A DNA stretch of 64,000 nt. Origin: a virus. The notes under the pieces were generated by a model, which saw nothing but the letters and a program-made list of their open reading frames with translations, was not told where the DNA came from and did not search any database. Below are positions 3,585 to 41,177 of the stretch, one piece after another. Position 1 is the stretch's first letter, and the number at the start of each line of letters is the position of its first letter. The stretch spans positions 1 through 64,000 of the IMG/VR virus record IMGVR_UViG_3300021375_000017; one strand, written 5' to 3'. Position numbers and translations under genes: made by a program.

Positions 3585-4466
3585 ATGAGTAATGTTGACA
3601 TATATTTGGGTAATCCAAATCTCAAGAAAGCTAATACAGCCATTGAGTTTACCCAAGATAACATTGAAGAATATATTAAGTGTAAAGAAGACCCGGTTTA
3701 TTTTGCAAAGAACTATGTTCAGATTGTGACTCTAGACCATGGTCTTCAACCCTTTAAGTTGTATGACTTTCAGGAAAAACTAGTAAAGAACTTTCACGAA
3801 AAGAGATTTAATATCTGTAAGATGCCACGTCAGACTGGAAAGTCTACTACTGTAGTATCTTTTCTATTACATTATGCCATCTTCAATGATAGTGTCAATA
3901 TTGGTATTCTTGCAAACAAAGCATCCACGGCAAGAGAACTTCTTGGAAGGTTACAGATTGCTTATGAGAACCTACCTAAGTGGATGCAACAAGGGATTCT
4001 AGCATGGAACAAAGGTAGTTTGGAACTAGAGAATGGTAGTAAGATATTAGCAGCATCTACGTCTGCTTCTGCTGTTCGAGGTATGTCATTTAACATCCTC
4101 TTCCTTGACGAATTTGCATTCGTTCCAAACCATGTTGCAGACTCATTCTTTGCATCTGTTTATCCTACGATTACTTCTGGTAAATCTACAAAGGTAATTA
4201 TTGTTTCTACCCCACACGGTATGAATCACTTCTACCGTATGTGGCATGATGCGGAAAGAGGATTCAATGACTACACCCCAACAGATGTTCATTGGTCTCA
4301 AGTACCTGGTAGAGATGAAGTCTGGAAAGAACAGACTATTAAGAACACATCAGAACAACAGTTCAAAGTTGAGTTTGAGTGCGTTGGAGGTAATACATTG
4401 GTAGAAGTTGAGAAAGATGATATTATCAGTGAGATGAGGATAGAGGATTTATACAATACAATGTGA
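3585..4466 (+). CDS. gp17: Terminase large subunit, N-terminal part, fused to a 28-aa split-intein N-fragment (4380-4463)
   Basis: Walker A PRQTGKS and Walker B LFLDEFAF. After ...KVEFE the ORF ends in intein block A, CVGGNTLVEVE...IEDLYNTM*. Confidence 0.95.
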   Translation: MSNVDIYLGNPNLKKANTAIEFTQDNIEEYIKCKEDPVYFAKNYVQIVTLDHGLQPFKLYDFQEKLVKNFHEKRFNICKMPRQTGKSTTVVSFLLHYAIFNDSVNIGILANKASTARELLGRLQIAYENLPKWMQQGILAWNKGSLELENGSKILAASTSASAVRGMSFNILFLDEFAFVPNHVADSFFASVYPTITSGKSTKVIIVSTPHGMNHFYRMWHDAERGFNDYTPTDVHWSQVPGRDEVWKEQTIKNTSEQQFKVEFECVGGNTLVEVEKDDIISEMRIEDLYNTM

Positions 4467-4477
4467 GTTTCTTGGAT

Positions 4478-4485
4478 TATAAATA
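4478..4485 (+). promoter_or_regulatory. T4-type late promoter for the terL-associated endonuclease
   Basis: Perfect TATAAATA ending 12 nt before ATG 4498. Confidence 0.75.
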
Positions 4486-4497
4486 AAAATAAAAGTT

Positions 4498-5067
4498 ATG
4501 TATTATATTTACTTATTGAGAGATGATTATGGTGATGTCAAATATGTTGGTCAAACACAACAGATTGATGTTAGGAAAAGAGACCACAAAAGATTAAAAC
4601 CACCACATACATTTGAGATTTTATATGAAAATCTTAAAGTGTCTGATGCCAAGATGTTGGAAATAGAAAATATAGATAAGTATGATACATATAGAAATGG
4701 ATGGAATAAATCCTCTGGTGGGGAAGGATTTGATGATTATGAAAGAAAGGGTATTGGGGGAGTAAAGAAAGGAAATGTGCCTTGGAATAAAGGTAAAAAG
4801 GGATGTTTTAGTGAAGAAACTATCCAAAAGTTTAGTAATACAAGAAAAGGTATTGCCTGGAGTAGAAAACTTACTGACAAACAAATCACACAAATAAGAA
4901 ACTTGTATCAAGAACAACCACATGTTGATGGTGTTGGAGATGTAGCAAAAAATGGAAGAAAAATGTCTTATATTCAAGCATTTTGTAAGAAATACTGTAG
5001 TGATTATAATATAACACCACAAGGAATGAAACGTATTATATTAAAGGAGTGTTGGGCAAATGTATAA
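4498..5067 (+). mobile_element. GIY-YIG homing endonuclease between the terL split-intein halves
   Basis: YYIY...KYVGQT...R...H...E...N nuclease motifs and a NUMOD-like PWNKGKKG..SEET. Confidence 0.85.
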
Positions 5068-6244
5068 AATAAACAACAATATAAAAGTAAAGACACCAAC
5101 TGGATTTCAATCATTTAGTGGAATACAGAAAGTTTTCAAACCATTTTATCATTGGATTATTTTTGATGATGGAAGTGAGATAAAATGTTCTGATAATCAT
5201 TCATTTGGGAGTGAGAAGATAAAGGCATCTTCTCTAAAACTTGATGACATTATTCAAGGAAAAAAAGTTGTATATAATGAAATAGTTGAGGAAGGAATAT
5301 ACTTATATGATTTATTGGATGTAGGGGAAGAAAACCTATACATTACCAATAAAATAGTTTCACATAATTGTGAGTTCCTAGGTTCTGTTGATACACTCAT
5401 TGCGCCATCAAAACTTAAAACATTAGTCTATGAGAATCCTATTCAGAGAAATGCTGGATTAGATGTCTTTGAAACAGTCAAAGAGAATCATGATTATATT
5501 ATGACTGTTGACGTTGCCAGAGGAGTTGGTGGAGACTACTCTGCATTTGTTGTTATTGATATTACCACATTCCCACATAGATTGGTCGCAAAGTATAGGG
5601 ATAATGAAATCAAACCAATGTTATTTCCAAGTGTCATCTATGAAGTAGCAAAGAATTATAATGAAGCATTTATACTCTGTGAGGTCAATGACGTTGGAGA
5701 CCAGGTGGCTAGTATTCTTCAATATGACCTGGAGTATCAAAACTTGTTAATGTGCTCTATGAGAGGTAGAGCAGGTCAGATTGTTGGTCAAGGATTCTCT
5801 GGTAAGAAGACACAACTTGGTGTCAAGATGTCCAAAACTGTAAAGAAAGTTGGTTCTCTCAATCTTAAAACAATGATTGAAGAGGATAAACTCATTCTCT
5901 GGGATTATGAGATTATTTCAGAACTGACTACATTCATTCAGAAGAACAATTCCTTTGAAGCAGAAGAAGGATGTAATGATGACCTTGCAATGTGTCTGGT
6001 AATCTATGCATGGATGGTCGCACAGGATTATTTTAAAGAACTAACTGATCAGGATGTCAGAAAGAGATTATATGAAGAACAGAAAAACCAGATTGAACAG
6101 GACATGGCTCCATTTGGTTTCTTAGATGATGGTTTGGGTGAAGACAATTTTGTAGATGGTGATGGAGACAGATGGTACACACAAAACAATAAAATGGATG
6201 AATATGGAAACACTGCTGGTGGTTGGGAACTCTGGAATTACTGA
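5060..6244 (+). CDS. gp17: 103-aa split-intein C-fragment (5060-5368) fused to the terminase large subunit C-terminal nuclease part
   Basis: Intein block B CSDNH, block F YDLLDV and block G VSHN, then the C-extein CEFLGS with VDVARG and DDLAM motifs. Confidence 0.95.
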   Translation: MYKINNNIKVKTPTGFQSFSGIQKVFKPFYHWIIFDDGSEIKCSDNHSFGSEKIKASSLKLDDIIQGKKVVYNEIVEEGIYLYDLLDVGEENLYITNKIVSHNCEFLGSVDTLIAPSKLKTLVYENPIQRNAGLDVFETVKENHDYIMTVDVARGVGGDYSAFVVIDITTFPHRLVAKYRDNEIKPMLFPSVIYEVAKNYNEAFILCEVNDVGDQVASILQYDLEYQNLLMCSMRGRAGQIVGQGFSGKKTQLGVKMSKTVKKVGSLNLKTMIEEDKLILWDYEIISELTTFIQKNNSFEAEEGCNDDLAMCLVIYAWMVAQDYFKELTDQDVRKRLYEEQKNQIEQDMAPFGFLDDGLGEDNFVDGDGDRWYTQNNKMDEYGNTAGGWELWNY

Positions 6245-6474
6245 TGGATTTAGATGGTCAGATAAAACTTGGACACTTACTTCTGAACGATAGGAAGTGT
6301 AGAACTTGTGGAGAGACAAAGAACTTGATAGAAGGTTTTTATAGGACAAGAAAAGATAGAGGGCCTGTCGCATCTTCTTATTCTTACGAATGTAAAGAGT
6401 GTACTGTTAGAAGAGTTGTACAGAATAGAAAGAAAATGACTCCATTTGTTGATTGGAATTATCCAGATTGGTGA
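6243..6474 (+). CDS. Small zinc-finger protein (CxxC...CxxC)
   Basis: CRTC and CKEC motifs. Likely start MDLDGQ overlaps the terL stop. Confidence 0.55.
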
Positions 6475-6552
6475 CTCACGTCGTATTTCCCCACTGAAAA
6501 GACCCATAATCATAAATATTTTTAGATAAACTGAGATCACGGAGAAAAATTC

Positions 6553-8745
6553 ATGGCGACTCCTCAATTATCTCCAGGCTTAATTGTCAGAGAAGTTGAC
6601 TTAACAGTAGGAAGAGCAGATAACGTTCTTGATAACATCGGTGCAATTGCCGGTCCATTTGAACTTGGACCAGTAAATGAGGCGATTGACATCACGACAG
6701 AACAAGAACTCATTAATTCCTTTGGTAAGCCACTTTCTACTGACAGACAGTATGAGTACTGGATGACGGCATCTTCCTACCTGTCGTATGGTGGTGTACT
6801 TAAGGTGGCCAGAGTTGCTGGTTCTACATTGGGTAACTCCAATGCTGGTGCTGGAGTTGCCTCTACATCGATGACTGGTAATGGTAGAATTGATAACTAC
6901 GATGACTACCAGGCCAATCACACAACTGATACTACTTGGAACTACGCAGCTAAGAACCCTGGTAAGTGGGCAAACAATCTGAAAGTATGTGTTATTGATA
7001 ATGCTGCTGACCAAACAATTGGAATCAATACTACTAACCCTGGTACCAGTGGAGCACTGGTTGGTAACGGTGTTACTGTAAGTCTCAGTGGTGTTGTTAT
7101 TCCTGGTGCAGGTACTACTTCAGTATTCAACGGTTACCTCAAAGGTATTATTACTGGTGTTACAACTGATGCCACTAGTGGTGCTAGTTCAATTGACGTT
7201 AAAATTGTTTCCAGAGTTTCTGGAAGCACCGAAACTAAAATCAATTATCAACAGAGTAATAGTGCTGCATCAATCGCAGTTTCTGACACTGTAAACTTTG
7301 TTAATAACTCTGGTATCAGCACAGGTACTTCACAAGCAGCAACAACTTCTGTTGACTGGTATGATCAACAAAGTCTTGGACTCACCAATTCCACAGTTTT
7401 TTGGAAGTCAATTGCACCGAGACCAGTAGCGTCAAACTATGTTACTCAGAGAAAAGGTGGAAATGACGGTATTCACGTTGTAGTTGTTGATGACACTGGT
7501 TCAGTAACAGGTATTCAAGGAAACATCCTTGAGAAGTTTACGAATCTTTCTAAGGCAGTAGATGCTACCTCTGATGGTAACGCGCCAACGAAGACTTACT
7601 ATAAGAACTTTGTTGCTGACAATTCAGCATACATTTATGCAGGTAAGAATCCTTCACAAGAAGCTGATACTTATTGGAACACTAGTCCATTGGCTTCAGG
7701 TTTCTCTGCGGCATTCACTCCAATCACAACTGGAGCAGGTCTTTGGGGATTAGAAGCACAGGGTGTTACCTTCTCTTCTATTGGTTCAGTAAGTTACACC
7801 TTTACTGGTGGTGTTGATTATTCCGCAAACGGTGGAATGGAGGCTCAACTGGGAGACTTGAACACTGCTTACGATTTGTTCTCTAATAAAGATGAGATCG
7901 AAGTTGATTACGTGATCATGGGTCCTGGTTTGAGTGATGAGTCACAATCACAAGCCAAGGCAAATAAAGTCATCTCTATTGCTGAGGCGAGAAAAGATTG
8001 TGTTGCAACTGTGTCACCACACAGAGCAAACGTTGTTAATGTTACCAACACAACCACTGCTACAAGTAATCTGTTGAGATACTACTCACCACTTACTTCT
8101 TCATCGTATGCAGTCTTTGATAGTGGTTATAAGTATACTTTTGATAGATTCAATAACGAGTTCAGATACATTCCATGTAACGGTGATGTTGCTGGACTGA
8201 TGACTAGAACTAACCTGGTTGCCTTCCCATGGTTCTCACCTGCAGGTACTCAAAGAGGAACTCTGAATAATGCCATCAAGTTGGCATATAATCCCACTAA
8301 GGCTCAAAGAGATCAACTTTATCCTGCAAGAGTTAACTCCATCATCAATCAAAAAGGTAGTGGAATCATTCTCTTCGGTGATAAGACTGGTCTTGGTTAC
8401 GCTTCTGCATTCGACAGAATCAACGTAAGAAGACTGTTCCTCACAGTTGAACAGGCACTTGAAGGAGCTGCAAATTCTCAACTCTTTGAGCTCAATGATA
8501 GTAACACAAGGTCGAATTTCGTTAACATTGTTGAACCATACTTGAGAGATGTTCAGGCTAAGAGGGGTGTTTACGACTTCCTCATTGTTTGTGATGATAC
8601 CAACAATACTCCTGAAGTAATTGACAACAATGAGTTTAGGGCAGACATCTACCTGAAACCAACCAAGTCGATTAACTTTGTCACTCTCACCTTCATTGCT
8701 ACAAGAACTGGTGTCCAGTTCTCTGAAGTTGCAGGTCGTGGTTAA
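6553..8745 (+). CDS. gp18: Tail sheath protein
   Basis: LSPG..VREVDLT N-terminus, WFSPAG, RINVRRLF and IKP.KSINFVTL-type C-terminus. Confidence 0.95.
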   Translation: MATPQLSPGLIVREVDLTVGRADNVLDNIGAIAGPFELGPVNEAIDITTEQELINSFGKPLSTDRQYEYWMTASSYLSYGGVLKVARVAGSTLGNSNAGAGVASTSMTGNGRIDNYDDYQANHTTDTTWNYAAKNPGKWANNLKVCVIDNAADQTIGINTTNPGTSGALVGNGVTVSLSGVVIPGAGTTSVFNGYLKGIITGVTTDATSGASSIDVKIVSRVSGSTETKINYQQSNSAASIAVSDTVNFVNNSGISTGTSQAATTSVDWYDQQSLGLTNSTVFWKSIAPRPVASNYVTQRKGGNDGIHVVVVDDTGSVTGIQGNILEKFTNLSKAVDATSDGNAPTKTYYKNFVADNSAYIYAGKNPSQEADTYWNTSPLASGFSAAFTPITTGAGLWGLEAQGVTFSSIGSVSYTFTGGVDYSANGGMEAQLGDLNTAYDLFSNKDEIEVDYVIMGPGLSDESQSQAKANKVISIAEARKDCVATVSPHRANVVNVTNTTTATSNLLRYYSPLTSSSYAVFDSGYKYTFDRFNNEFRYIPCNGDVAGLMTRTNLVAFPWFSPAGTQRGTLNNAIKLAYNPTKAQRDQLYPARVNSIINQKGSGIILFGDKTGLGYASAFDRINVRRLFLTVEQALEGAANSQLFELNDSNTRSNFVNIVEPYLRDVQAKRGVYDFLIVCDDTNNTPEVIDNNEFRADIYLKPTKSINFVTLTFIATRTGVQFSEVAGRG

Positions 8746-8783
8746 TAACTATTACAAATATCTAAAACAGGAGTACTAAACCA

Positions 8784-9416
8784 ATGGCAGAAGCAAAAAC
8801 CATTTCTCAATTCAAATCAAAATTGGCGGGTGGTGCAGCCCGTAACAATTTATTTGAAGTTTCAATCCCTTCGTTTCCTTCAGCAATAAGTGATGCTTGG
8901 AACTCTGGTGACAATGGTGAGAACGGAGTTTTTAAATTCCTCTGTAAGGCAGCCAACCTTCCAGCATCAACCGTTGCCGCCATCGATATTCCTTTCAGAG
9001 GTAGAAATCTGAAAGTTGCTGGTGACAGAACGTTTGCTGATTGGACCGTCACCGTCATGAATGACGAAGACTTCAAACTCAGAACCGCTTTTGAAAAGTG
9101 GTCTAATGTTCTTAGTAAATTGGAAGACAACACAGGTGTAACGAATCCAGGTTCTTACATGACTGATGCATATGTCCAACAACTTGGTAGAGGACGTGAG
9201 AAGTTCTCCACTTCAAACGGTGGTGGTGAACATTCTGTTCTTAGAACTTATAAGTTCTATGACATTTGGCCAAATGACATCAGTGCAATTGATTTGAACT
9301 ATGATTCAGCCAATTCAATCGAAACATTCACTGTAAACTTCAGTGTTCAATACTTCACCATCGGTGAATCACCTGAATCCAACACTGGTTCTGCGACAGA
9401 AGAATTGATTCGTTGA
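8784..9416 (+). CDS. gp19: Tail tube protein
   Basis: GGAARNNLFEV and FRGR.LKVAGDRTF..WTVT motifs; synteny. Confidence 0.93.
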   Translation: MAEAKTISQFKSKLAGGAARNNLFEVSIPSFPSAISDAWNSGDNGENGVFKFLCKAANLPASTVAAIDIPFRGRNLKVAGDRTFADWTVTVMNDEDFKLRTAFEKWSNVLSKLEDNTGVTNPGSYMTDAYVQQLGRGREKFSTSNGGGEHSVLRTYKFYDIWPNDISAIDLNYDSANSIETFTVNFSVQYFTIGESPESNTGSATEELIR

Positions 9417-9453
9417 TAAATACTAGAACAGAAGTTTCTAGTCAATAATAATA

Positions 9454-11121
9454 ATGGCGAGATTATTTGGATTCTCAATTGAAGATAACGAAAAACCCTC
9501 ACCTGGCGTAGTATCTCCGGTTCCACCATCTAAGGATGATGGTTCCGAACACTATGTTAGTTCAGGGTTTTTTGGTTCATATGTAGATATTGAAGGGACA
9601 TATAAAACAGAAAACGACCTTATTCGTAGGTATCGTTCCATGGCACTCTATCCTGAGTGTGATAGTGCAATCGAAGATATTGTAAACGAAGCAATTGTCT
9701 CAGATACCAATGACAGTCCTGTTCAGATTGAACTATCTAATCTGAATGCCAGTGATGGTATTAAAAAGAAAGTCAGAGAAGAATTTAAGTATATTCTTGA
9801 GTTACTTGACTTTGATAAGAAGGCCCATGAAATCTTCCGTAACTGGTATATTGACGGAAGACTATACTACAACAAAGTAATTGATATAAAAAAACCTGAA
9901 GAAGGTATTCAAGAACTGAGATATATTGACGCTTCTAAGATGAAGTATGTCAGACAGTTGAAGAAGAAAGGTAAGGATAGTGTTCAAACAGCACAAAACC
10001 AGTTCACAAGTAGTGAAGGGACTGGATATGACTTTCCAGAAATTGAAGAATATTTCATCTATACACCAGGTGGTCAAGGTGGAAACAGTTCTGCTTCTGG
10101 ATATGGTGGTGCTGTAAAAGGTATTAAGATGACCAAGGATTCGGTCACTTATTGTACCTCTGGATTGGTAGATAGAAATAAAGGTAATACTCTTTCCTGG
10201 TTGCATAAGTCAATCAAACCTCTTAATCAGTTGATGATGATTGAGGATTCCCTTGTTATCTACAGAATTTCAAGAGCTCCTGAAAGAAGAATCTTCTATA
10301 TCGATGTTGGTAACCTTCCTAAGATGAAGGCGGAACAGTATCTTCGTGATGTTATGATGAGGTATCGTAACAAACTGGTATATAACGCAGACACTGGTGA
10401 AATCAAGGATGATAAAAAGTTCATGTCTATGATGGAAGACTTCTGGCTTCCTAGACGTGAAGGTGGTCGTGGTACTGAGATTACTACACTTCCTGGTGGT
10501 CAGAACCTTGGTGAAATCACTGATATCAATTACTTCCAAAGGAAACTTTATAGAGCATTGAATGTTCCTGAGACTAGAATTGAAGGAGAAGGTGGTGGTA
10601 TGTCACTGGGCCGTTCTTCTGAAATCCTGAGAGATGAAGTCAAGTTCTCCAAGTTTGTTGGAAGAATGAGAAAGAGATTCTCTGCAATGTTCAGTGATAT
10701 GTTGAAGACTCAACTTATCCTGAAGAATGTCATTACTCCCGAAGATTGGGAGTACATGAATGATCATATCCAGTATGACTTCCTATATGACAATCACTTT
10801 GCAGAACTGAAAGAAGCAGAACTTCTGACTGAGAGACTTAATCTTCTTCAGACTGTTGAACCTTACATCGGTAGATTCTATTCACAGGATTATGTAAGAA
10901 GACATGTTCTTCACCAAACTGATAGTGATATCTTTGAACAAGACACTCTTATTGAAAAAGAAATTGAGAACGGTGTCATTCCTGACCCTAATGCAATGGT
11001 AGATCCTATGGCAATGGAAGGTGGTGAGGCATTACCACCAGGTCAAGAATCATCTGGTGACCCAATTCAGGCACCTCCAATTCCCAAAGATCCCGATATG
11101 GGTGGTCAGGGAGTCATCTAA
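9454..11121 (+). CDS. gp20: Portal vertex protein
   Basis: RAPERRIFYIDVGNLPK and EDFWLPRREGGRGTEI. Confidence 0.97.
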   Translation: MARLFGFSIEDNEKPSPGVVSPVPPSKDDGSEHYVSSGFFGSYVDIEGTYKTENDLIRRYRSMALYPECDSAIEDIVNEAIVSDTNDSPVQIELSNLNASDGIKKKVREEFKYILELLDFDKKAHEIFRNWYIDGRLYYNKVIDIKKPEEGIQELRYIDASKMKYVRQLKKKGKDSVQTAQNQFTSSEGTGYDFPEIEEYFIYTPGGQGGNSSASGYGGAVKGIKMTKDSVTYCTSGLVDRNKGNTLSWLHKSIKPLNQLMMIEDSLVIYRISRAPERRIFYIDVGNLPKMKAEQYLRDVMMRYRNKLVYNADTGEIKDDKKFMSMMEDFWLPRREGGRGTEITTLPGGQNLGEITDINYFQRKLYRALNVPETRIEGEGGGMSLGRSSEILRDEVKFSKFVGRMRKRFSAMFSDMLKTQLILKNVITPEDWEYMNDHIQYDFLYDNHFAELKEAELLTERLNLLQTVEPYIGRFYSQDYVRRHVLHQTDSDIFEQDTLIEKEIENGVIPDPNAMVDPMAMEGGEALPPGQESSGDPIQAPPIPKDPDMGGQGVI

Positions 11122-11148
11122 ATACCAATGTAATGAAATCATTTAGAC

Positions 11149-11367
11149 ATGGATGAACTTATGGATCTTTTGGTGACGGACGGTAGTTCTTCCCAAATTA
11201 GTGATCATATTAAAGATATTCTTTTTGCAAAGAGTGCAGAAAATATTGAAACAATAAGACCAAATGTAGCAGCATCAATCTTTGATGGTGATGTGAATCT
11301 TGATCCTGAAGAAGGTGAAGAAGAATTTGTATCTGATGTTAATTTTGAACCAGAAACAGAAGAATAA
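11149..11367 (+). CDS. Small acidic prohead-core-region protein
   Basis: Lies between gp20 and gp21, downstream of a CTAAATA late promoter. Confidence 0.55.
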   Translation: MDELMDLLVTDGSSSQISDHIKDILFAKSAENIETIRPNVAASIFDGDVNLDPEEGEEEFVSDVNFEPETEE

Positions 11368-11952: not shown

Positions 11953-11960
11953 GAAAACAA

Positions 11961-21869: not shown

Positions 21870-22478
21870 ATGGGATATATCTATAAGATTATCAATAATG
21901 TGAATGGTAAATTCTATATTGGTAAAACAGAGAGGACAATTGGGTATAGATTTTCTACACACAAATCCTCCTCTGTTTCACCTAAAGATTATTTTCATAG
22001 GGCATTGAAAAAATATGGTGTGGAGAATTTCTCTATTATTTCTCTTAAAGAAATAAGAGAAGAGGATGATATTAATGAATTAGAGAGACACTATATTAAG
22101 TGGTTGAAACCTCACTACAACCTCAAAGAAGGTGGTGAAGGTGGAAGACACTCTGATATATCAAGACAGAGGATGAGTAAATCTCAATTTGGTGTGAAGA
22201 GAAATCACACACCAGAAAACAGAAAGAAAACCAGTAAAAAGATTAGTGAGTCAAACAAAGGTAAGAATACCTGGACTCAAAATAAGAAGTGGTGGAATAA
22301 TGGTGTTGAGTGTAAATATCAAGAAACACAACCAGAAGGATTTGTAAGAGGAAGATTACCAAAACACAAGAGAGGCCTAACACCGGGATTGGAACTCGGA
22401 ACCAAACTCAATCTTACAGAGGAAGAAAGAAAGAGAAGAAGTAATCACCTTAAACAAGTCCGAAGAAAGGTGTTATAA
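21870..22478 (+). mobile_element. Free-standing GIY-YIG (Seg-like) homing endonuclease
   Basis: GYIYKI.N..NGKFYIGKT, R...H, E and YN...GG motifs; NUMOD3-like repeats and WWNNG...GF.RGR tail. CTAAATA promoter at 21842-21848. Confidence 0.88.
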
Positions 22479-33425: not shown

Positions 33426-33466
33426 GAGGGGTAACTGGCACAATCCAGTGACAACCCCTCTTTTTT
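33426..33466 (+). terminator. Terminator-like hairpin after hsp20
   Basis: GAGGGG...CCCCTC outer stem, ACTGG/CCAGT inner stem and a T run. Confidence 0.65.
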
Positions 33467-33499
33467 ATGTTATAATTTATAAGAGGTATATTGTAAAAG

Positions 33500-33871
33500 A
33501 TGACTGTTAAACTATTACTATTGAAGTCTGGAGAAGACGTTATCGCAGACGTAAAAGAGATGTGTGTTGGTGATGAGGAAAAACCTACAGTGGTTGGTTA
33601 TTTTCTTAGATACCCTTGTCGAGTAAAATTGGTTGGACAAGATACGGATCATAAGGGAGATAAACAGCACCCGTTTAGAATGCAACTTACTCCATGGATG
33701 CCCCTAAGTAAAGATGAAATGATTCCTGTTGTTGCAGATTGGGTTGTCACTGCAACTGAACCAATTGATGAACTAAAAGAAGCTTACGAAAAAGGAGTAG
33801 AGAAAAATGAAAATAGAAAACTTGAAACTACTGTCACTGACGGATCAGAGACTGATCCTGACACAGATTGA
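33500..33871 (+). CDS. Conserved hypothetical protein
   Basis: LLKSGEDVIAD...PWMPLS; sits upstream of gp43. Confidence 0.65.
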   Translation: MTVKLLLLKSGEDVIADVKEMCVGDEEKPTVVGYFLRYPCRVKLVGQDTDHKGDKQHPFRMQLTPWMPLSKDEMIPVVADWVVTATEPIDELKEAYEKGVEKNENRKLETTVTDGSETDPDTD

Positions 33872-34073
33872 AGAGGTCTCAGCAGACCTGGGTGAACCAG
33901 ACTGTAAACTGATAGAACCTTTTATTCTTAATGCCAGTACAATGACACTATCCCCATGGTTTGTTGACATCACAAATCAGAATGAGTTTATGATTCATTC
34001 TGAAAAGATTTTGACAATTATGGAACCTAACAGTAAACTGAAAGTGATGTATGAGGACTTACTTAAGGAATGA
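33807..34073 (+). CDS. Conserved hypothetical protein
   Basis: GEPDCKLIEP motif; coupled to gp43. Confidence 0.6.
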   Translation: MKIENLKLLSLTDQRLILTQIEEVSADLGEPDCKLIEPFILNASTMTLSPWFVDITNQNEFMIHSEKILTIMEPNSKLKVMYEDLLKE

Positions 34074-36610
34074 ATTTCTATACAAACATACAGATGATTG
34101 GAAATCAATTCCTTGTTCGTGGTTATGAGGACGGAAAGAGAGTTCACTATCGTGATACCAACTATCGTCCAACTCTGTATGTTAACTCTAAAGTCCCCAC
34201 AAAATACAAAACTCTGGAAGGTGAATATGTTGAGGAAATTCAACCTGGAACAGTAAAGGACTGTAGAGACTTTTATAAGAAGTATGATGAGATCGAGAAC
34301 TTCAAGATCTATGGTAATGAGAGATATATCTACCAATACATTTCTGACAAGTATCCTCAGGATGAGATAAAGTTTGACATCAAGAAGATGAGACTTTTGA
34401 CTATCGATATTGAGGTCTCATCAGAAGAGGGATTTCCTGACCCAGAACATTGTTCTGAGGAGATGTTGACCATCTCTATTCAGGATTATGCAACTAAGAA
34501 AATTACAACTTGGGGCAGAAAACCATATACCCCTAGTCAGGACAATGTGACCTATCATTATTATCCTGAAGAAAGAGAAATGCTTGGTGCATTCATTGAT
34601 TGGTGGATGAATGACTATCCTGATGTTGTGACTGGGTGGAATACCCGTCTGTACGACATCCCATATATCTGTGGAAGGATCGATAGGGTTCTGGGTGAGA
34701 GGGCCCTTAGGAATCTGTCTCCATGGGGTCTAGCGACCAAGAGAGAGACTTGGATCAATGGCCGTATGTTTTATATCTACGATATTGGTGGTATCACTGA
34801 CCTAGACTATCTGGAGTTGTATAAGAAGTTTACTTATGTGAATCGTGAGTCTTACCGACTGGACTTCATTGCAGAGGTTGAACTTGGTCAAAAGAAATTA
34901 GACCACTCTGAGTTTGATACATTCAAAGACTTCTATACTGGTGATTGGAAAAAGTTTGTAGATTACAACATCGTTGACGTGGAACTTGTTGACCGTATGG
35001 AAGACAAGATGAAACTGATTGAGTTGGTTATCACCATGGCATACGATGGTAAGGTAAACTTTGGTGACCCAATGTTCCAAGTTAGATTGTGGGACACCAT
35101 TATCTACAACTATTTGAAGAAGAGGAATATTGTTATTCCTCCAAGGATCAATACTGATAAGAGTGAAAAGTTTGCTGGGGCCTATGTAAAGGAACCCAAA
35201 CCAGGTGTATATGATTGGGTTGTAAGTTTTGACTTGAACTCACTTTATCCGCATTTAATTATGCAATACAATATCTCACCTGAGACACTTCAGGAAGAGA
35301 AGCACCCATCAGTTACCATTCAAAAGATTCTTGATGAGAAACTTGATTTTCAGATGTATAAGGACTATGCGGTCTGTGCCAATGGTGCAATGTACCGTAA
35401 AGATGTGAAAGGTTTCCTACCTGAACTGATGGAGAAGATGTATGCTGAACGTAAGGCATTCAAGAAGGAGATGTTGAAGTCTAAACAGAAACTGGTTGAC
35501 ATTGAATCAAAACTGAAGACCAATAAGGATCCAGTTCTCCGTAGACAGAGAGAACAAACCATCAAAGATATTGCTAAGTTCAATAACTTTCAGATGGTGA
35601 GAAAGATTTGTTTGAACTCTGCCTACGGTGCAATTGGTAATGCATACTTTAGATATTTCAAACTTGCCAATGCAGAAGCGATTACGATGTCAGGTCAGAC
35701 ATCTATTCGTTGGATTGAAAATCATATGAATGAATATCTAAATAACTTACTTTCAACAGAAGATGTAGATTATGTCATCGCATCTGACACCGATTCAATC
35801 TATCTTAACTTTGGACCTATTGTTGATAAATTTCTTGGTGATAAAGTTAACGATACGAGCAAGGTTGTTTCTATCATTGACAAAGTCTGTCAAGAGAAAC
35901 TGGAACCGTTCATCGAAACATCTTATCAAAATCTTGCGACGTATGTAAACGCATACGATCAGAAGATGCAGATGAAACGGGAGAACATTGCAGACCGTGG
36001 AATTTGGACTGCAAAGAAGAGATACATTCTCAATGTATGGGATAGTGAAGGTGTTAGGTATGAAGATCCTAAACTTAAGATCATGGGTATTGAGGCAGTC
36101 AAGTCATCCACTCCAGCACCCTGTAGGAGTATGATTAAGGATGCTCTCAAACTAATGATGAATGGAACAGAAGATGATGTGATTGAGTATATTGATAAGT
36201 GTAGAAGTGACTTTAAGAAACTTCCCATTGAAGCTATTTCTTTCCCTAGATCTGTTTCTGATGCCCAGAAGTATAAGGCACATGCAACGATCTACTCAAA
36301 GGGAACTCCTATTCATTGTCGTGGTGCCCTATTGTTCAATCACTACATAAAAGAAAAGAAGTTAACAAACAAATATTCACTTATCAATAACGGTGAAAAG
36401 ATTAAATTTTGTTATCTTAAAAAACCAAATATCATCCATGAGAATGTGATCTCATTTATTTCAGAGTTTCCAACAGAGTTGGGACTTGACCAATATGTGG
36501 ATTATGACTTACAATTTGAAAAGGCATTCTTAGAACCTCTCAAGGTCATTCTTGATGCCATTGGATGGAATGTAACTAAGATAAATACTTTAGAAAGTTT
36601 TTTTATGTAA
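34070..36610 (+). CDS. gp43: Family B DNA polymerase
   Basis: Exonuclease DIE motif, SFDLNSLYP, K...NSAYG and SDTDS. Confidence 0.98.
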   Translation: MNFYTNIQMIGNQFLVRGYEDGKRVHYRDTNYRPTLYVNSKVPTKYKTLEGEYVEEIQPGTVKDCRDFYKKYDEIENFKIYGNERYIYQYISDKYPQDEIKFDIKKMRLLTIDIEVSSEEGFPDPEHCSEEMLTISIQDYATKKITTWGRKPYTPSQDNVTYHYYPEEREMLGAFIDWWMNDYPDVVTGWNTRLYDIPYICGRIDRVLGERALRNLSPWGLATKRETWINGRMFYIYDIGGITDLDYLELYKKFTYVNRESYRLDFIAEVELGQKKLDHSEFDTFKDFYTGDWKKFVDYNIVDVELVDRMEDKMKLIELVITMAYDGKVNFGDPMFQVRLWDTIIYNYLKKRNIVIPPRINTDKSEKFAGAYVKEPKPGVYDWVVSFDLNSLYPHLIMQYNISPETLQEEKHPSVTIQKILDEKLDFQMYKDYAVCANGAMYRKDVKGFLPELMEKMYAERKAFKKEMLKSKQKLVDIESKLKTNKDPVLRRQREQTIKDIAKFNNFQMVRKICLNSAYGAIGNAYFRYFKLANAEAITMSGQTSIRWIENHMNEYLNNLLSTEDVDYVIASDTDSIYLNFGPIVDKFLGDKVNDTSKVVSIIDKVCQEKLEPFIETSYQNLATYVNAYDQKMQMKRENIADRGIWTAKKRYILNVWDSEGVRYEDPKLKIMGIEAVKSSTPAPCRSMIKDALKLMMNGTEDDVIEYIDKCRSDFKKLPIEAISFPRSVSDAQKYKAHATIYSKGTPIHCRGALLFNHYIKEKKLTNKYSLINNGEKIKFCYLKKPNIIHENVISFISEFPTELGLDQYVDYDLQFEKAFLEPLKVILDAIGWNVTKINTLESFFM

Positions 36611-36613
36611 AGT

Positions 36614-37300
36614 ATGACCATGGGCAAATATTATACTTATGCCTATTTGCGTGAAGATGGAACTCCTTATTATATCGGTAAAGGATTAAAAAACAGGAAA
36701 TCTAAAAAGCATTTTAGAAGAAATGGAAAAGTATTTTCTCCTCCATCAGAAGATAAAATAATTATTCTCAAACAGAATTTAACTGAAAAAGAAGCATTTA
36801 AGCACGAAATTTATATGATTTCCGTTTTGGGTAGAAAAGATTTGGGGACTGGTATTTTGAGAAATTTGACTGAAGGTGGTGAAGGGAGTAGTGGATATAA
36901 ACACTCCGATGAATTTAAATCTAAAATTAGAAAAGTTCAGAGTGGTAGAGTTATTTCCAATACAACTAAAGAAAAAATGAGAAATGCAAATCTTGGAAAA
37001 GTTTTATCTGATGAACATAAAAAAAAGATTGGAGAATCGCAAGGGGGGAAAGTTGTAAATGAGGAGGTTAGAAAAAAAATAAGTAATACACTAAAAGGAA
37101 AAAAACATAGTCCAGAAAGAATTAATAATATAAGAAAGGGAATGGGATGTGAAACTTATAAATTCATTTCCCCAGAAGGTAAAATAATTGAAGTTGATAA
37201 TATGACGCAATTCTGCTATGATAGAAATCTACAGCAAAGTTGTATGTCAAACATCTGGAACAATAAAAGAAACTTTCATAAAGGATGGAAAAAAGCATAA
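36614..37300 (+). mobile_element. Free-standing GIY-YIG-variant homing endonuclease with NUMOD3 repeats
   Basis: YYTYAYLREDGTPYYIGKG, LRNLTEGGEG, H/LS.E.K.KI repeats and HKGW end. GATAAATA at 36580-36587 inside the gp43 end. Confidence 0.85.
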
Positions 37301-38217
37301 TGGACTTTTTATCAGATATTGTAAAAGAGATTGGAGATGACTTTACCAAACTTGCTGCCGACATCGATGACACTGAGACATATGTGGACACAGGTTCGTT
37401 CGTTCTTAACGCTCTTGTATCTGGGTCTATCCGTGGTGGTGTATCTGGGAATAAAATTACTGCAATTGCTGGCGAAAGTTCTACTGGAAAGACTTTCTTT
37501 TCACTCGCAGTGGTCAAGAACTTCTTGGATACTAATCCCGATGCATATTGCCTTTATTTTGATACTGAGGCAGCAGTTAATAAGTCACTACTAGTAAGTC
37601 GTGGCATTGATCTGAATCGACTAGTTGTTGTTAATGTCGTTACCATTGAGGAGTTTAGGAGTAAGGCTCTCAAGGCGGTAGACATGTATTCAAAAAAACC
37701 TGAAGATGAACGTAAACCTTGTATGTTTGTGTTAGATTCTTTAGGAATGCTTTCTACAGAGAAAGAAATCACTGATGCCCTCAATGAGAAACTTGTCCGT
37801 GATATGACAAAATCTCAGTTGATTAAAGGGGCTTTCAGAATGTTGACTCTTAAATTGGGTCAAGCCAAAATACCAATGATTGTAACCAATCACACCTATG
37901 ATGTCATCGGAGCTTATGTTCCTACAAAGGAAATGGGTGGGGGTTGTTTAGTTGCGGGAACTAAGATACAAACAGAAAATGGTTCTATTCCTATTGAATC
38001 TATTCAAGTTGGTGACAAAGTGAGAACTATGTTTGGTTATTCATCAGTTACTGACACTTTCCATTTCACCGATAAAGATGTTTATGAATTGGAATTGGAA
38101 GATGGAGAAACTATTAGATGTTCTGGCGAACATAAGTTTTTAGTAGATACTGGAGATGGTTATGAATGGAAATCCGTTACTGAGTTATTACCTTCAGATA
38201 CTATCAAATCTATGTGA
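37300..38217 (+). CDS. uvsX: UvsX recombinase, N-terminal part, fused to a 90-aa split-intein N-fragment (37945-38214)
   Basis: GESSTGKT, DSLGML and TNHTY. After MGGG come intein block A CLVAGTKI and block B CSGEHKF. Confidence 0.93.
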   Translation: MDFLSDIVKEIGDDFTKLAADIDDTETYVDTGSFVLNALVSGSIRGGVSGNKITAIAGESSTGKTFFSLAVVKNFLDTNPDAYCLYFDTEAAVNKSLLVSRGIDLNRLVVVNVVTIEEFRSKALKAVDMYSKKPEDERKPCMFVLDSLGMLSTEKEITDALNEKLVRDMTKSQLIKGAFRMLTLKLGQAKIPMIVTNHTYDVIGAYVPTKEMGGGCLVAGTKIQTENGSIPIESIQVGDKVRTMFGYSSVTDTFHFTDKDVYELELEDGETIRCSGEHKFLVDTGDGYEWKSVTELLPSDTIKSM

Positions 38218-38259
38218 AAGTTGGTTCTGGACTAAATAATAATAATTGAGTCCAGAACC

Positions 38260-38931
38260 TTGTTTTTATCCAATAAGTATACTGATTGTTATTTCCGTAT
38301 TATTAATAAGGCAAATCTTAGGAAACTTCCTCAAATTACTGAATGTCATCATATTATACCTAAATCATTAGGTGGAGGAGAAGAACCAGAAAACAAAGTA
38401 TATCTAACACCAAGAGAACATTTTGTCTGTCATCATCTTCTTCTGAAGATGTTAGAGGGAAAATCAAAACAGAAAATGTGTTATGCTTTTTATAGAATGA
38501 ACTCCAGTAATAATGGAGTTAGGTGTGAAAATCTCAATTCTTATGATAGAATAAGAGAACACTACTCTCATCTCACTTCTGGAGTAAATAACCCATTTTA
38601 TGGGAAGGGGCATTTTGGATATTCTAACCCAATGTCCAAACCTGAGGTTCGGGAGAAACATAAACAAATAGTTTCTTCACCTGAACATAGAAAGATGATG
38701 AGTGATAAAATGTCTGGTGAAAATAATCCATTTTACGGAAGAACTCATTCAGATGAAACCAAGAAACATCTTTCTGAGTTGGCGTCTCAGAGAACAGGTG
38801 AAAACTCTTCCCGTTATGGGAAGAAACACAGACGAGTTGTTTGTGAACACTGCCAAAAAGAAATTACTTACCCAATGTATAAGAGGTGGCATGGAACGAA
38901 TTGTAAAGTCTATCAAGAAAATAAAGACTGA
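38260..38931 (+). mobile_element. HNH (MobE-like) homing endonuclease between the uvsX split-intein halves
   Basis: ECHHIIPKSLGG...NKVYLTPREHFVCHHLL, G.NNPFYG NUMOD3 repeats and a CEHC...H..NC zinc finger. TTG start. Confidence 0.88.
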
Positions 38932-39367
38932 GGATGTTTATGACATCACAGTTGAAGGAGAACATCATTATATTCTTGGTAATGGTGTCGTGTCTCACAA
39001 TTCTGGCCTTAAGTATGCAGCGTCTACAATCATCTATCTCTCAAAGAAAAAGGAAAAGGATGGAACAGAAGTGGTCGGCAATCTTATCAAGGCTAAGACT
39101 GCTAAGTCGCGTTTAAGTAAAGAGAATAAAGATGTTACTATACGTCTCTATTACGATGAACGTGGTCTTGATAGGTATTACGGTCTCTTAGAACTTGGAG
39201 AACTTGGTGGACTATGGAAAAACGTTGCAGGACGTTATGAGATGGATGGTAAGAAAGTCTATGCTAAGGCCATCCTGAAAGAACCTGAGACTTATTTTAC
39301 ACCTGAAGTGATGGAAAAACTAGATGAAATCGCAAAAGAACAATTCTCTTATGGTTCGTCATTATGA
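38891..39367 (+). CDS. uvsX: 37-aa split-intein C-fragment (38891-39001) fused to the UvsX C-terminal part
   Basis: AAGAGG ribosome binding site. MERIVKSI...VYDITVEGEHHYILGNGVVSHN is followed by SGLKYAAS...KSR...GLDRYYGL. Confidence 0.92.
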   Translation: MERIVKSIKKIKTEDVYDITVEGEHHYILGNGVVSHNSGLKYAASTIIYLSKKKEKDGTEVVGNLIKAKTAKSRLSKENKDVTIRLYYDERGLDRYYGLLELGELGGLWKNVAGRYEMDGKKVYAKAILKEPETYFTPEVMEKLDEIAKEQFSYGSSL

Positions 39368-39866
39368 TGTTGTTCCAGAGTCATACTGTAAAAAACTAAT
39401 TGAGATATTTGAAAACTCCTCTAATCAGGAGTTTATCAATAATGATCACAAACCATGTTTCAGTCAGGTTAATCTGAGTAAAGAAAATCCTGAAATGGTC
39501 AGACAAATCATTCCCATTATTAAAGGTGTACATACTCTGTATAAGAAGGAAACCAAATCTTATTTTCTTCCAGAGTTAAATGCCCTTGAAGAACTTAGGA
39601 TTAAAAGATACCTTCCTAATGGTGAGGAAAGGTTTGATGAACATGTAGACGTGACTGACTATCCCTCATCAAGAAGGTCAGTTGCATTTTTATTTTATCT
39701 GAATACTAATGATGGTAATACAGTTTTTTCTAAACAGAAGTTGAACATTAAACCAAAGTGTGGTAGGGTAGTAGTATTCCCTCCTACATGGGAATATCCT
39801 CATGCAAGACTCCCCCCAACAACTAGTAACAAATACATCATGAGTACATATATTCACTATGGATAA
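39351..39866 (+). CDS. 2OG-Fe(II) oxygenase
   Basis: HVD, FLFYLN, VVVFPP.W.YPH and KYIMSTY. Confidence 0.8.
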   Translation: MVRHYDVVPESYCKKLIEIFENSSNQEFINNDHKPCFSQVNLSKENPEMVRQIIPIIKGVHTLYKKETKSYFLPELNALEELRIKRYLPNGEERFDEHVDVTDYPSSRRSVAFLFYLNTNDGNTVFSKQKLNIKPKCGRVVVFPPTWEYPHARLPPTTSNKYIMSTYIHYG

Positions 39867-40491
39867 GGTTGAATTTTTAGTTCTGAAAAATCTAATACAC
39901 AATGAAAAATACTTGAGAAAGGTTCTTCCATTCATTAAAGAAGAATATTTTGATGATACTAAATATAAGGTAATCTTCGACGAGATCTCTACCTTTACTG
40001 CTGAGTATAACGAACTCCCTACAAAAGAGATTCTCAATATTGAGATTGAAAAGAGAAGAGATATTAATGAGGACTCTTATAAACAGATTTCTCATGTAGT
40101 TAATTGTCTTGAGGACGATGTTGTAGAGTTTGATTGGTTGGTTAACACTACTGAGAAGTGGTGTCGTGACCGTGCCATTTATCTTGCCTTGATTGAATCC
40201 ATTCAGATTGCTGATGGAGGAGATGTCAAGAAGGCACCAGATGCCATTCCATCTATTCTGTCTGATGCTCTGGCAGTTAGTTTTGACAACCATGTAGGAC
40301 ATGATTACCTTGAAGATTATGAATCACGATACGAGTCTTATCACAGGAAGGAGGAGAGAATTGAATTCGATCTCGACTATTTTAACAAAATCACGAAAGG
40401 TGGGCTCCCTAACAAAACTCTTAACATCGCACTTGCTGGTTGCGTTCATCCAGAAACTAAAGTTAAAATTAGATTTAAGAAGATTTCTTGA
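39859..40491 (+). CDS. gp41: Replicative helicase, N-terminal part, fused to a 16-aa split-intein N-fragment (40441-40488)
   Basis: EKWCRDRA, SFDNHVGHDY and KITKGGLP.KTLNIALAG, then CVHPETKVKIRFKKIS*. Confidence 0.92.
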   Translation: MDKVEFLVLKNLIHNEKYLRKVLPFIKEEYFDDTKYKVIFDEISTFTAEYNELPTKEILNIEIEKRRDINEDSYKQISHVVNCLEDDVVEFDWLVNTTEKWCRDRAIYLALIESIQIADGGDVKKAPDAIPSILSDALAVSFDNHVGHDYLEDYESRYESYHRKEERIEFDLDYFNKITKGGLPNKTLNIALAGCVHPETKVKIRFKKIS

Positions 40492-41143
40492 TTATGGAAT
40501 TTGGTGCTGGTTCTCCAGTTCCAAATTTCCATCCTTCGTTTAATTTAGTATCAATATTTTCTGGTAGTATTCTTTTCCATCCCTTTGTTCCTGGTAAGTA
40601 CATTACCTTTTTTCCTTTATGTGCTTTACCTCCAAGAGATGCTCTTTGTTGTCTTCCTTGATTAGACGCCCAGTAATTGAATTCTTTAGATGCTCTTTGC
40701 TTTCCTCCAAAAGATGCTCTTTCCTTTCTACCTTCTTCTGTACTCCAGTAATAAAAATTTTTAATGTTATCTTTTAAATATTCTTGTTTTTGAGTTTCCA
40801 TTCCTTTGACCATCCATTCTTTTCTTTCATCTATTGGAACAGAAAAGAAACCAATCTTATTATCTCTACAAAATTCCCCAATTATTTTTCTATATTGTGG
40901 AGATAAGTTTGCTCCTAACATTTTCATAGACCTTAAGTCATTTGGATTTTTGTATATTTTCCATAACAAATAATGTGCTATGATATGTTCTCTAACATTT
41001 AGGTATGTAAGGTTACAATCATCATCTGTTCCTCCCATATGTTTAGGAACAACATGATGTTCGTGTAGTCCTGAATATTTTTTATAATCTTCTTTTCTTG
41101 ACTTATTGCCTTTGCATAAGTTAGAATAGATACGATCAAACAT
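40475..41143 (-). mobile_element. HNH homing endonuclease lying antisense between the gp41 split-intein halves
   Basis: HEHHVVPKHMGG...NLTYL.VREH..AHYLL. Minus-strand TATAAATA at 41166-41173. Confidence 0.88.
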
Positions 41144-41177
41144 TCCCTGTCCCTGCTACTGCTATTATTTATATAAA

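What the first reader, a model, noticed from the sequence alone, without database searches (positions are those of the whole stretch)
4459..41173. All three split-intein endonuclease genes carry a copy of their intein-free target junction beside their late promoter
Seen at three independent loci. terL: CAA TGT GAG TTT CTT GGA T (4459-4477) reads Q-C-E-F-L-G against the spliced junction E|CEFLGS and abuts TATAAATA. uvsX: GGT TCT GGA CTA AA (38223-38236) reads G-S-G-L against G|SGLK and overlaps CTAAATA. gp41: on the minus strand, TATAAATA is followed by ATA GCA GTA GCA GGG ACA GGG (41165-41145), reading IAVAGTG against IALAG|TG. The copies differ from the resident alleles mostly at synonymous positions. 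Established: I-TevI represses itself through a homing-site-like operator overlapping its late promoter, and endonucleases are thought to invade splicing elements at target-like sites. Inference: this is a general target-mimic operator or invasion scar shared by GIY-YIG and HNH families, and it lets cleavage sites be read straight from sequence.
Basis: partly seen in the sequence, partly recalled or inferred. Interest (0 to 1): 0.88.

Follow-up and report, generated by a model that had tools for sequence, protein, structure and literature searches.

The report
Homing endonuclease genes carry target copies
In this cyanophage, each of three selfish endonuclease genes that split an intein carries, next to its own late promoter, a short conserved copy of the intein-free DNA it presumably attacks. 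This most likely lets the enzyme switch off its own gene, as the T4 enzyme I-TevI is known to do.

Summary
The window is a T4-like cyanomyovirus with three fractured genes (terL, uvsX, gp41). Each is a split intein interrupted by a free-standing GIY-YIG or HNH endonuclease gene (HEG).

- **The copies.** Within 40 nt upstream of each HEG start, beside a late promoter, lies a 15-21 nt copy of that gene's own intein-free junction.
- **Statistics.** Shuffle p values are 4e-4 to 8e-4 per locus. Cross-matches between a leader and the other genes' junctions sit at background.
- **Conservation.** In public viral and metagenome contigs the copy is present in 45/46 (terL), 14/16 (uvsX) and 56/65 (gp41) distinct cassettes. 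It persists where HEG synonymous sites are saturated.
- **Other support.** One distant terL clade has a changed junction and a correspondingly changed copy. The copy also stays with the shared DNA-binding half when the nuclease domain is swapped.
- **Empty sites.** HEG-less contiguous mini-inteins exist for all three genes, and their empty sites lack the copy. The copy therefore belongs to the cassette and is not a pre-existing target-like site.
- **Corrections.** In gp41 only the LAGTG core is conserved.

Best reading (about 0.55): an I-TevI-like autorepression operator. Binding is untested, and some clades lack the copy. The kind is known, but I found no earlier report for split-intein HEGs.

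The parts
3585..4466 (+). terL N fragment. N-extein runs to 4379. A 28-aa N-intein occupies 4380-4463, and the stop is at 4464-4466.
   Evidence: Terminase_6N.
4462..4477 (+). terL junction copy (CEFLG codons). It overlaps the N-intein stop and abuts the promoter.
4478..4485 (+). Late promoter TATAAATA of the terL HEG.
   Evidence: one of only 9 perfect copies in the window.
4498..5067 (+). GIY-YIG homing endonuclease gene. It has a disordered linker and a helical C-terminal DNA-binding half.
   Evidence: (PF01541), and (fold hits to the UvrC and I-TevI catalytic domains).
5060..6244 (+). terL C fragment. The C-intein is 5060-5368 and the C-extein starts at 5369.
37285..38217 (+). uvsX N fragment. 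N-extein runs to 37944 and the 90-aa N-intein is 37945-38214.
38223..38236 (+). Partial sense copy of the uvsX junction (GSGL). It is the 5' arm of the hairpin and overlaps the CTAAATA promoter variant at 38232-38238.
   Evidence: This arm has decayed in some relatives.
38242..38259 (-). Fuller inverted copy of the uvsX junction, 15/18 nt here and 18/18 in L109. It contains the 3' arm of the hairpin (38249-38259) and ends at the HEG start.
38260..38931 (+). HNH/NUMOD3 homing endonuclease gene. The start is TTG here and ATG in relatives.
38891..39367 (+). uvsX C fragment. The C-intein runs to 39001 and the C-extein starts at 39002.
39859..40491 (+). gp41 N fragment. N-extein runs to 40440, followed by a 16-aa N-intein.
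40475..41143 (-). HNH-type homing endonuclease gene, antisense to gp41.
41145..41165 (-). gp41 junction copy. The conserved core is 41159-41145, reading (L/V)AGTG. Its 3' end doubles as the ribosome-binding site.
41166..41173 (-). Late promoter TATAAATA of the gp41 HEG.
41178..42353 (+). gp41 C fragment. The C-intein is 41178-41555 and the C-extein starts at 41556.

Best explanation
Each HEG cassette that splits one of these inteins brings a compact control region at its 5' end. The region holds a stop codon for the N-intein, a 15-21 bp copy of the intein-free junction of the host gene, and a T4-type late promoter.

The junction is the sequence the endonuclease's DNA-binding module is inferred to recognise in intein-less phages. 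The copy lacks the rest of the homing site. The enzyme would therefore bind its own promoter region without cutting it and repress its own late transcription. This would work as I-TevI does at the operator over its late promoter.

In the uvsX cassette the copy is duplicated in inverted orientation. The resulting hairpin would also hide the start codon in read-through transcripts.

**Shown here:**
- the copies exist;
- each is specific for its own junction;
- they are under purifying selection;
- they are borne by the cassette;
- they lie beside the promoter.

**Inferred, not shown:** that the HEG binds the copy, that binding represses transcription, and that the junction is the homing target.
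For: 1. **Specificity.** Each leader matches only its own junction. Genome-wide pattern scans find only the copies and the resident exteins.
2. **DNA-level likeness to natural intein-free alleles.**
   - uvsX: 17/18 positions fall within population variation.
   - gp41: 20/21 positions allowed, with all invariant codon positions 1-2 kept but one.
   - terL: 13/15 to the consensus here, and 14/15 for the commonest variant of the copy.
3. **Purifying selection.**
   - The terL copy keeps 12-15/15 nt where HEG four-fold sites are 42-47% identical.
   - The gp41 LAGTG core survives to 41-47% HEG amino-acid identity, with four-fold sites at 34-40%.
   - In uvsX, where HEG four-fold sites are 54% identical, the inverted copy keeps 15/18 nt and one stem pair differs by a compensatory A-T/T-A change.
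4. **Covariation.** L023, whose junction is E|CDFVGS, carries E-CDFGG. L022 carries the same copy, but its C-extein start lies outside the fetched DNA.
5. **Link to the DNA-binding half.** L024/L025 have an HNH catalytic domain in place of GIY-YIG but share the C-terminal half. They keep the terL copy, now downstream of the promoter. In L025 it holds an in-frame stop, so the constraint is not a coding one.
6. **Position follows the HEG, not the host gene.** The copy is always at most 40 nt from the HEG start and touches the promoter, whatever the HEG's orientation.
7. **Empty sites lack it**.
8. **Precedent.** The I-TevI operator shares 15/20 nt with its homing site, overlaps its late promoter, and is bound but poorly cut. 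[quoted passage not shown]
9. **Architecture.** The terL HEG has a GIY-YIG domain, a long disordered linker and a helical C-terminal part, like I-TevI.
Against: - There is no binding, footprint or expression evidence.
- Several related or analogous cassettes lack a clear copy: the gp41 clade L087-L092/L656, L371, L405 and VP-1. It is therefore dispensable.
- Parts of the copies have other plausible duties:
  - the gp41 3' half is the Shine-Dalgarno sequence;
  - the first 5 nt of the terL copy hold the N-intein stop;
  - the uvsX copy forms a regulatory hairpin of a kind already described upstream of fractured-gene HEGs (PMC2677866).
- In terL the copy lies upstream of the promoter rather than over it.
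- In T4, removing the I-TevI operator had no noticeable effect on viability (PMC2988022), so the selective benefit is unclear.
- The C-terminal fold was not matched to the I-TevI DNA-binding domain.
Confidence: 0.55

Rival explanations
1. Inherited relic. The copy is a piece of an intein-free allele picked up at an earlier location or recombination event of the cassette. It is retained because it now supplies a stop codon, a ribosome-binding site or a hairpin arm, not because the enzyme binds it.
For: - HEG cassettes in this genome may carry duplicated ends of neighbouring genes.
- The copies overlap a stop (terL), an SD sequence (gp41) and a hairpin (uvsX).
- The differences from the resident alleles look synonymous, as a diverged coding fragment would.
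Against: - Three unrelated secondary duties would each have to preserve exactly the junction-like bases.
- In L095 the gp41 copy lies 27 nt from the ATG and is not the SD.
- In four uvsX relatives the 5' arm is gone but the inverted copy stays.
- The L025 copy holds a stop codon and the spacers vary in length, so there is no coding constraint.
- L023's copy covaries with its changed target.
Confidence: 0.2
2. A cis-acting site for mobility rather than regulation. The HEG binds, or nicks, its own cassette at the copy. This would tether donor and recipient or stimulate recombination that spreads the cassette, for example into HEG-less mini-intein alleles.
For: - HEG-bearing alleles coexist with HEG-less contiguous and HEG-less split alleles. 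In their intein parts these are 96-99% identical to the window's for uvsX, terL and gp41. This shows frequent gain or loss of the cassette.
- The copy sits a few bases inside the cassette's left boundary.
Against: - The copy always adjoins the promoter and start, which such a role does not require.
- I found no precedent for this in the papers read.
- No cleavage motif could be assessed.
Confidence: 0.13
3. A pre-existing target-like sequence in the intein at which the endonuclease gene invaded. This is the intron model of invasion at homing-site-like sequences.
For: The copy is near the cassette boundary.
Against: Empty sites in contiguous mini-inteins of all three genes lack the copy. They show no significant similarity to the junction (p = 0.71, 0.79 and 0.29).
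Confidence: 0.03
4. Chance resemblance in AT-rich leaders.
For: - The matches are short.
- At the protein level the uvsX junction ranks only about eighth in the window proteome.
Against: - Three independent loci each have p < 0.001.
- Off-diagonal scores are at background.
- L109 carries an 18/18-nt identity to its own junction.
- The copies are conserved across dozens of diverged cassettes.
Confidence: 0.01

Closest known systems
I-TevI autorepression operator in the phage T4 td intron (Edgell et al. 2004, as summarised in PMC2988022)
   Same: - It is a sequence upstream of the endonuclease ORF that resembles the homing site around the insertion point (15/20 nt).
- It overlaps a TATAAATA late promoter.
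- It is bound as tightly as the homing site but cut about 100-fold less efficiently, because the cleavage motif is missing at the right distance.
- The enzyme is a GIY-YIG endonuclease with a long linker and a separate DNA-binding domain.
   Different: - Here the host element is a split intein, not a group I intron.
- The HEG is free-standing and splits the intein.
- The mimicked sequence is a protein-splice junction.
- Three cassettes of two nuclease families sit in one genome.
- The position relative to the promoter varies: upstream, over it, or downstream.
- Nothing has been tested biochemically.
Putative operators of I-TevII and I-TevIII (PMC2988022)
   Same: They are homing-site-like sequences over middle or late promoters, including for an HNH enzyme. 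They were proposed from sequence only.
   Different: They are intron-encoded, in T4, and were described without comparative conservation data.
Fractured genes: split inteins with an intervening free-standing HEG (Dassa et al. 2009, PMC2677866)
   Same: - The gene architecture is the same, including gp41 and terL hosts.
- HEG and C-intein ORFs overlap.
- Hairpins containing TATAAATA lie upstream of the HEG.
- HEG-less derivatives exist.
   Different: That paper reports hairpins and two conserved stem motifs shared across different host genes. It does not mention any likeness to the extein junction. The gp41 and terL leaders here do not fold.
Regulatory hairpins of T-even HEGs (I-TevI; mobE of phage Aeh1), as cited in PMC2677866 and PMC2988022
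   Same: The uvsX leader is a hairpin with a late-promoter-like element in the loop and the start codon next to the 3' arm.
   Different: Here both arms are copies of the target junction. The inverted arm is kept even where the other arm has decayed.
Collaborative homing: a free-standing HEG that cuts the insertion site of an endonuclease-less intron (F-CphI and psbA in cyanophage S-PM2; recalled from the literature, not read here)
   Same: A free-standing cyanophage HEG is inferred to target the insertion site of a splicing element that shields the resident allele.
   Different: The splicing element here is an intein and the HEG sits inside it. The target is inferred only from the copy.

Membership tests
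Fractured gene (split intein + intervening free-standing HEG) | The host gene is in two ORFs. The first ends in an N-intein beginning with Cys. The second begins with a C-intein ending in HN followed by Cys, Ser or Thr. | tested here: met
   The junctions are EFE|C...SHN|CEFLGS (terL), GGG|C...SHN|SGLKY (uvsX) and LAG|C...SHN|TGVGKS (gp41).
Fractured gene (split intein + intervening free-standing HEG) | A homing-endonuclease gene with its own start lies between the halves. | tested here: met
   - terL HEG: GIY-YIG at the Pfam threshold.
- uvsX HEG: NUMOD3 above threshold, HNH below threshold.
- gp41 HEG: no Pfam hit, but tblastn matches to annotated HNH homing endonucleases.
I-TevI-type homing-site-like operator | A sequence near the HEG's own promoter resembles its homing site around the insertion point. 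| tested here: met
   Likeness to the intein-free junction is shown. That the junction is the homing site is inferred, not shown.
I-TevI-type homing-site-like operator | It overlaps or abuts a late (or middle) promoter that drives the HEG. | tested here: met
   TATAAATA touches the terL and gp41 copies. A CTAAATA variant overlaps the uvsX copy and is canonical in relative L492. Promoter activity itself was not tested.
I-TevI-type homing-site-like operator | The endonuclease binds the operator with affinity like that for the homing site. | not testable with these tools
   This needs a gel-shift or footprint assay.
I-TevI-type homing-site-like operator | The operator is cut poorly because the cleavage determinant is missing. 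| not testable with these tools
   Only 15-21 nt of the junction are copied and the flanks are unrelated. The cleavage determinants of these enzymes are unknown.
I-TevI-type homing-site-like operator | Binding lowers transcription from the promoter. | not testable with these tools
   This needs a reporter assay during infection.
I-TevI-like GIY-YIG endonuclease architecture | An N-terminal GIY-YIG domain, a long flexible linker and a separate C-terminal DNA-binding domain. | tested here: inconclusive
   The GIY-YIG fold is confirmed, with UvrC and I-TevI catalytic domains at probability 0.97-1.0. Residues 75-121 have low confidence. C-terminal helices are predicted. There is no sequence or fold match to the I-TevI DNA-binding domain.

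The most novel reading that the evidence does not exclude
Free-standing homing endonucleases of phages commonly carry a wobble-tolerant 'address label' of their target next to their promoter. If so, three things follow:
- the target of an uncharacterised HEG cassette can often be read from its own leader;
- the labels are direct sequence evidence that intein-splitting HEGs recognise the intein insertion site, which is collaborative homing between inteins and free-standing HEGs;
- the pattern of drift in the labels maps which bases the enzymes actually read.
Probability: 0.3. Interest if true: 0.75.

Novelty: new variant of a known kind. Interest (0 to 1): 0.62.

Why it matters
- **Target evidence.** Split-intein 'fractured genes' are the source of widely used protein-ligation tools such as gp41-1 and the TerL-type atypical split inteins. 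Yet the targets and regulation of their endonucleases have not been tested. A conserved, cassette-borne copy of the intein-free junction gives the first sequence-level evidence of what these enzymes recognise.
- **Wider reach of a known mechanism.** It extends I-TevI-type self-repression from introns to inteins and to free-standing HEGs of two nuclease families.
- **A recognition map.** Positions that are held versus those that drift give a ready-made guess at the recognition code.
- **Testable binding sites.** It offers candidate sites for enzymes that could be developed as sequence-specific reagents.
- **Origin of the element.** The HEG-less alleles found here show that the element arrived with the cassette.

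Tried and rejected
- **RNA structure as the common denominator.** Only the uvsX leader folds. The terL and gp41 leaders do not.
- **Translation of the copies.**
  - The frames are closed after a few codons.
  - Spacer lengths to the ATG vary by 1-6 nt in gp41 relatives.
  - The L025 copy holds an in-frame stop.
- **Generic extended promoter.** The other seven TATAAATA sites in the window share no upstream or downstream similarity with the copies.
- **Extension to the window's other free-standing HEGs** (starts at 21870, 36614 and 58065).
  - There was no significant match of their leaders to the resident flanking genes.
  - Their true targets are unknown, so this is inconclusive.
- **Out-of-sample loci.**
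  - Vibrio phage VP-1 terL (in-frame GIY-YIG) has no copy.
  - L405 (gp41-1-type site, GIY-YIG) has none at the protein level and only a marginal 13/16 DNA match to the N-extein.
  - L371 (uvsX) shows only KRLGGG against KEMGGG, p = 0.004.
- **HEG tree.** I built one to decide whether absence in L087-L092 is a loss. The deep nodes were unresolved.
- **Solved-structure searches.** Sequence searches of the three HEGs found nothing significant. Foldseek found only the GIY-YIG domain.
- **Not run.** I did not attempt RNA-seq or run look-ups, because contigs cannot show transcript starts.


Full report
**What the window is.** BLAST against phage records places the window in T4-like cyanomyoviruses of Synechococcus and Prochlorococcus. 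Three essential genes are 'fractured'.

| Gene | N part | HEG | C part |
|---|---|---|---|
| terL | 3585-4466 | GIY-YIG, 4498-5067 | 5060-6244 |
| uvsX | 37285-38217 | HNH/NUMOD3, 38260-38931 | 38891-39367 |
| gp41 | 39859-40491 | HNH-type, antisense, 40475-41143 | 41178-42353 |

Translations give the splice junctions EFE|CEFLGS, GGG|SGLKY and LAG|TGVGKS. Pfam supports the host-gene and endonuclease assignments. This architecture is the one described as fractured genes (PMC2677866).

**Checking the observation.**
- The terL copy (4462-4476) matches the resident C-extein start at 12/15 nt, with all three differences at wobble positions.
- The gp41 copy (41165-41145, minus strand) matches the spliced junction at 14/21 nt and 6/7 residues.
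- The uvsX stretch (38223-38236) reads GSGL.

The best uvsX match is on the other strand, at 38242-38259. It is 15/18 nt identical to the spliced junction and reads GSGLNY against GSGLKY.

**Is it more than chance?**
- Five thousand dinucleotide shuffles of each 60-nt leader gave p = 4e-4, 8e-4 and 6e-4.
- Each leader scores 27-32 against its own junction and 12-15, the null mean, against the other two.
- Junction patterns searched through all 64 kb on both strands hit only the copies and the resident exteins. The expected number of chance hits is 0.02-0.07.
- Ranked against about 19,800 residues of window proteome, the true junction is first for terL, tied first to third for gp41, and about eighth for uvsX.

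**Comparative evidence.** HEG and intein queries fetched several hundred loci from viral and metagenome contigs.

*terL.*
- The copy plus TATAAATA is the most conserved block upstream of the HEG. The N-intein codons and the spacer to the ATG diverge around it.
- Against relatives whose HEG four-fold sites are only 42-47% identical, the copy keeps 12-14/15 nt.
- It is present in 45 of 46 distinct HEG-bearing leaders. The one miss is a parsing slip.
- The commonest variant is 14/15 identical to the consensus of 80 intein-free alleles.
- L023, with a 41%-identical HEG, has the junction E|CDFVGS and carries E-CDFGG, a covarying change. L022 (43% identical) carries the same copy, but its C-extein start lies outside the fetched DNA.
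- L024 and L025 hold an HNH catalytic domain joined to the same C-terminal half, 48% identical over residues 83-181. They retain the copy, now between promoter and ATG. In L025 it has an in-frame stop.

*gp41.*
- All relatives down to 41% HEG identity have the same antisense architecture.
- The core coding (L/V)AGTG is kept in 56 of 65 distinct leaders.
- L093 and L095 use other wobble bases. In L095 the copy lies 27 nt from the ATG, so it is not the ribosome-binding site there.
- HEG four-fold sites in these lineages are 34-40% identical.

*uvsX.*
- The inverted copy is present in 14 of 16 distinct leaders.
- Seven of the 14 copies are an exact 17-mer that fits the consensus intein-free junction at every specified position. 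In L109 the copy matches that locus's own junction at 18/18 nt.
- One stem pair differs by a compensatory change.
- Four leaders have lost the 5' arm but keep the inverted copy.

**Where the copy comes from.** Contiguous, HEG-less mini-inteins exist at all three sites. In their intein parts they are 96-99% identical to the window's: uvsX L477/L478, terL L513 and gp41 L585-589. L620 and L651 are more diverged gp41 examples. HEG-less split forms also exist: terL L504, L507, L509, L553 and L570, and gp41 L624 and L640.

Comparing empty and filled sites defines the cassette boundaries. In terL and uvsX the cassette begins with a few bases that create the N-intein stop. The copy follows, then the promoter.

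The empty sites lack the copy and show no significant similarity to the junction (p = 0.71, 0.79 and 0.29). So the copy is part of the mobile cassette. It is not a target-like sequence that was already in the intein.

**What it most likely does.** The only property common to all three copies is that they are DNA that:
- resembles the cassette's presumptive target;
- lies at the cassette's promoter and start;
- is held by selection mainly at the bases that are invariant in natural targets, that is codon positions 1 and 2.

That is the signature expected of a site read by the endonuclease's own DNA-binding module.

The precedent is I-TevI. Its operator shares 15/20 nt with the homing site, overlaps the late promoter, is bound as well as the homing site, and is cut about 100-fold less because the cleavage motif is misplaced. 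[quoted passage not shown]

The terL HEG has the same general build: a GIY-YIG domain, a low-confidence linker and C-terminal helices. Retention of the copy when only the C-terminal half is shared (L024/L025) fits binding by that half.

In uvsX the inverted duplication adds a hairpin with a promoter-like element in its loop and the start codon at its foot. This is the translational control described for T-even HEGs and for fractured genes (PMC2677866).

I put this reading at about 0.55.

**Limits and rivals.** Nothing shows binding or repression.
- Some cassettes lack the copy:
  - the gp41 clade L087-L092/L656, which has a different hairpin;
  - L371 (uvsX), which shows only a weak likeness to the N-extein side;
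  - L405, a GIY-YIG HEG in a gp41-1-type site;
  - Vibrio phage VP-1 terL.
- The HEG tree does not resolve whether these absences are losses.
- Parts of the copies also serve as a stop codon, a ribosome-binding site or a stem.
- The window's other free-standing HEGs gave no significant leader-to-flank match.
- A relic kept for secondary duties (0.2) or a cis site for mobility (0.13) remain possible.
- Chance, and invasion at a pre-existing target-like site, are effectively excluded.

**Novelty.** The fractured-gene paper reports leader hairpins, TATAAATA and two stem motifs, but no likeness to the extein junction. Full-text searches found no paper that describes such a copy for intein-associated or free-standing HEGs. 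The mechanism proposed is a known kind. Its occurrence in split-intein cassettes of cyanophages, in three families at once and with population-scale conservation, appears to be new.

Noticed in passing
L024:2051-2638 and L025:2234-2827: A terL split-intein cassette has an HNH catalytic domain in place of the GIY-YIG domain. The C-terminal DNA-binding half is homologous, 48% identical to residues 83-181 of the window's HEG. This is a natural nuclease-domain swap on one targeting module.
   Followed up: partly
L477, L478 (uvsX); L513 (terL); L585-L589, L620, L651 (gp41): Contiguous HEG-less mini-inteins sit at the same three insertion sites. In L477/L478, L513 and L585-589 the intein parts are 96-99% identical to the window's, so presence of the cassette is polymorphic in nature. 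HEG-less split forms also exist: L504, L507, L509, L553, L570, L624 and L640.
   Followed up: partly
L477:1940-2000: The uvsX of L477 seems to carry a second intein only 10 residues upstream of the first. The sequence ...SHN|SYVPTKEMGGG|C... precedes the mini-intein.
   Followed up: no
window 41154-41165 (minus strand) and relatives L033-L081: The stretch between TATAAATA and the conserved gp41 core is a short repeat (units of about 6 nt) whose copy number varies among close relatives. The run of A before the HEG ATG also varies in length.
   Followed up: partly
window 58013-58064: A perfect 12-bp hairpin has TATAAATA in its loop and ends at the ATG of a free-standing HEG (58065-58685) downstream of nrdB. 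It folds strongly (z = -5.2). Its arms show only a weak 10/15 likeness to the nrdB 3' end.
   Followed up: partly
window 21870-22478, 36614-37300, 58065-58685; G000 about 85.1-85.5 kb: There are further free-standing HEGs (GIY-YIG and NUMOD3-bearing). One lies directly between gp43 and uvsX. The phage is unusually rich in HEGs.
   Followed up: partly
L118 (Vibrio phage VP-1, MH363700.1 74807-78149): This terL carries two inteins. One is a contiguous mini-intein at the Walker A region. The second is at the same site as here: its N part runs in frame into a GIY-YIG HEG, and its C part is annotated as a separate 'terminase like' protein.
   Followed up: partly
L405 (reverse strand 1074-3627): A gp41 fractured at a different site (...TQTTR|C...THN|SGYGN), with an intein resembling the gp41-1 type, holds a GIY-YIG HEG behind TATAAATA.
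   Followed up: partly
L020:2501-3067: The homologous 567-nt span of this terL HEG contains a stop codon, so the HEG may be broken. The junction copy upstream is still intact.
   Followed up: no
L590, L637, L654: These are gp41 cassettes with a different HEG N-terminus. Their leader keeps only the first part of the copy, reading LAGS instead of LAGTG.
   Followed up: no
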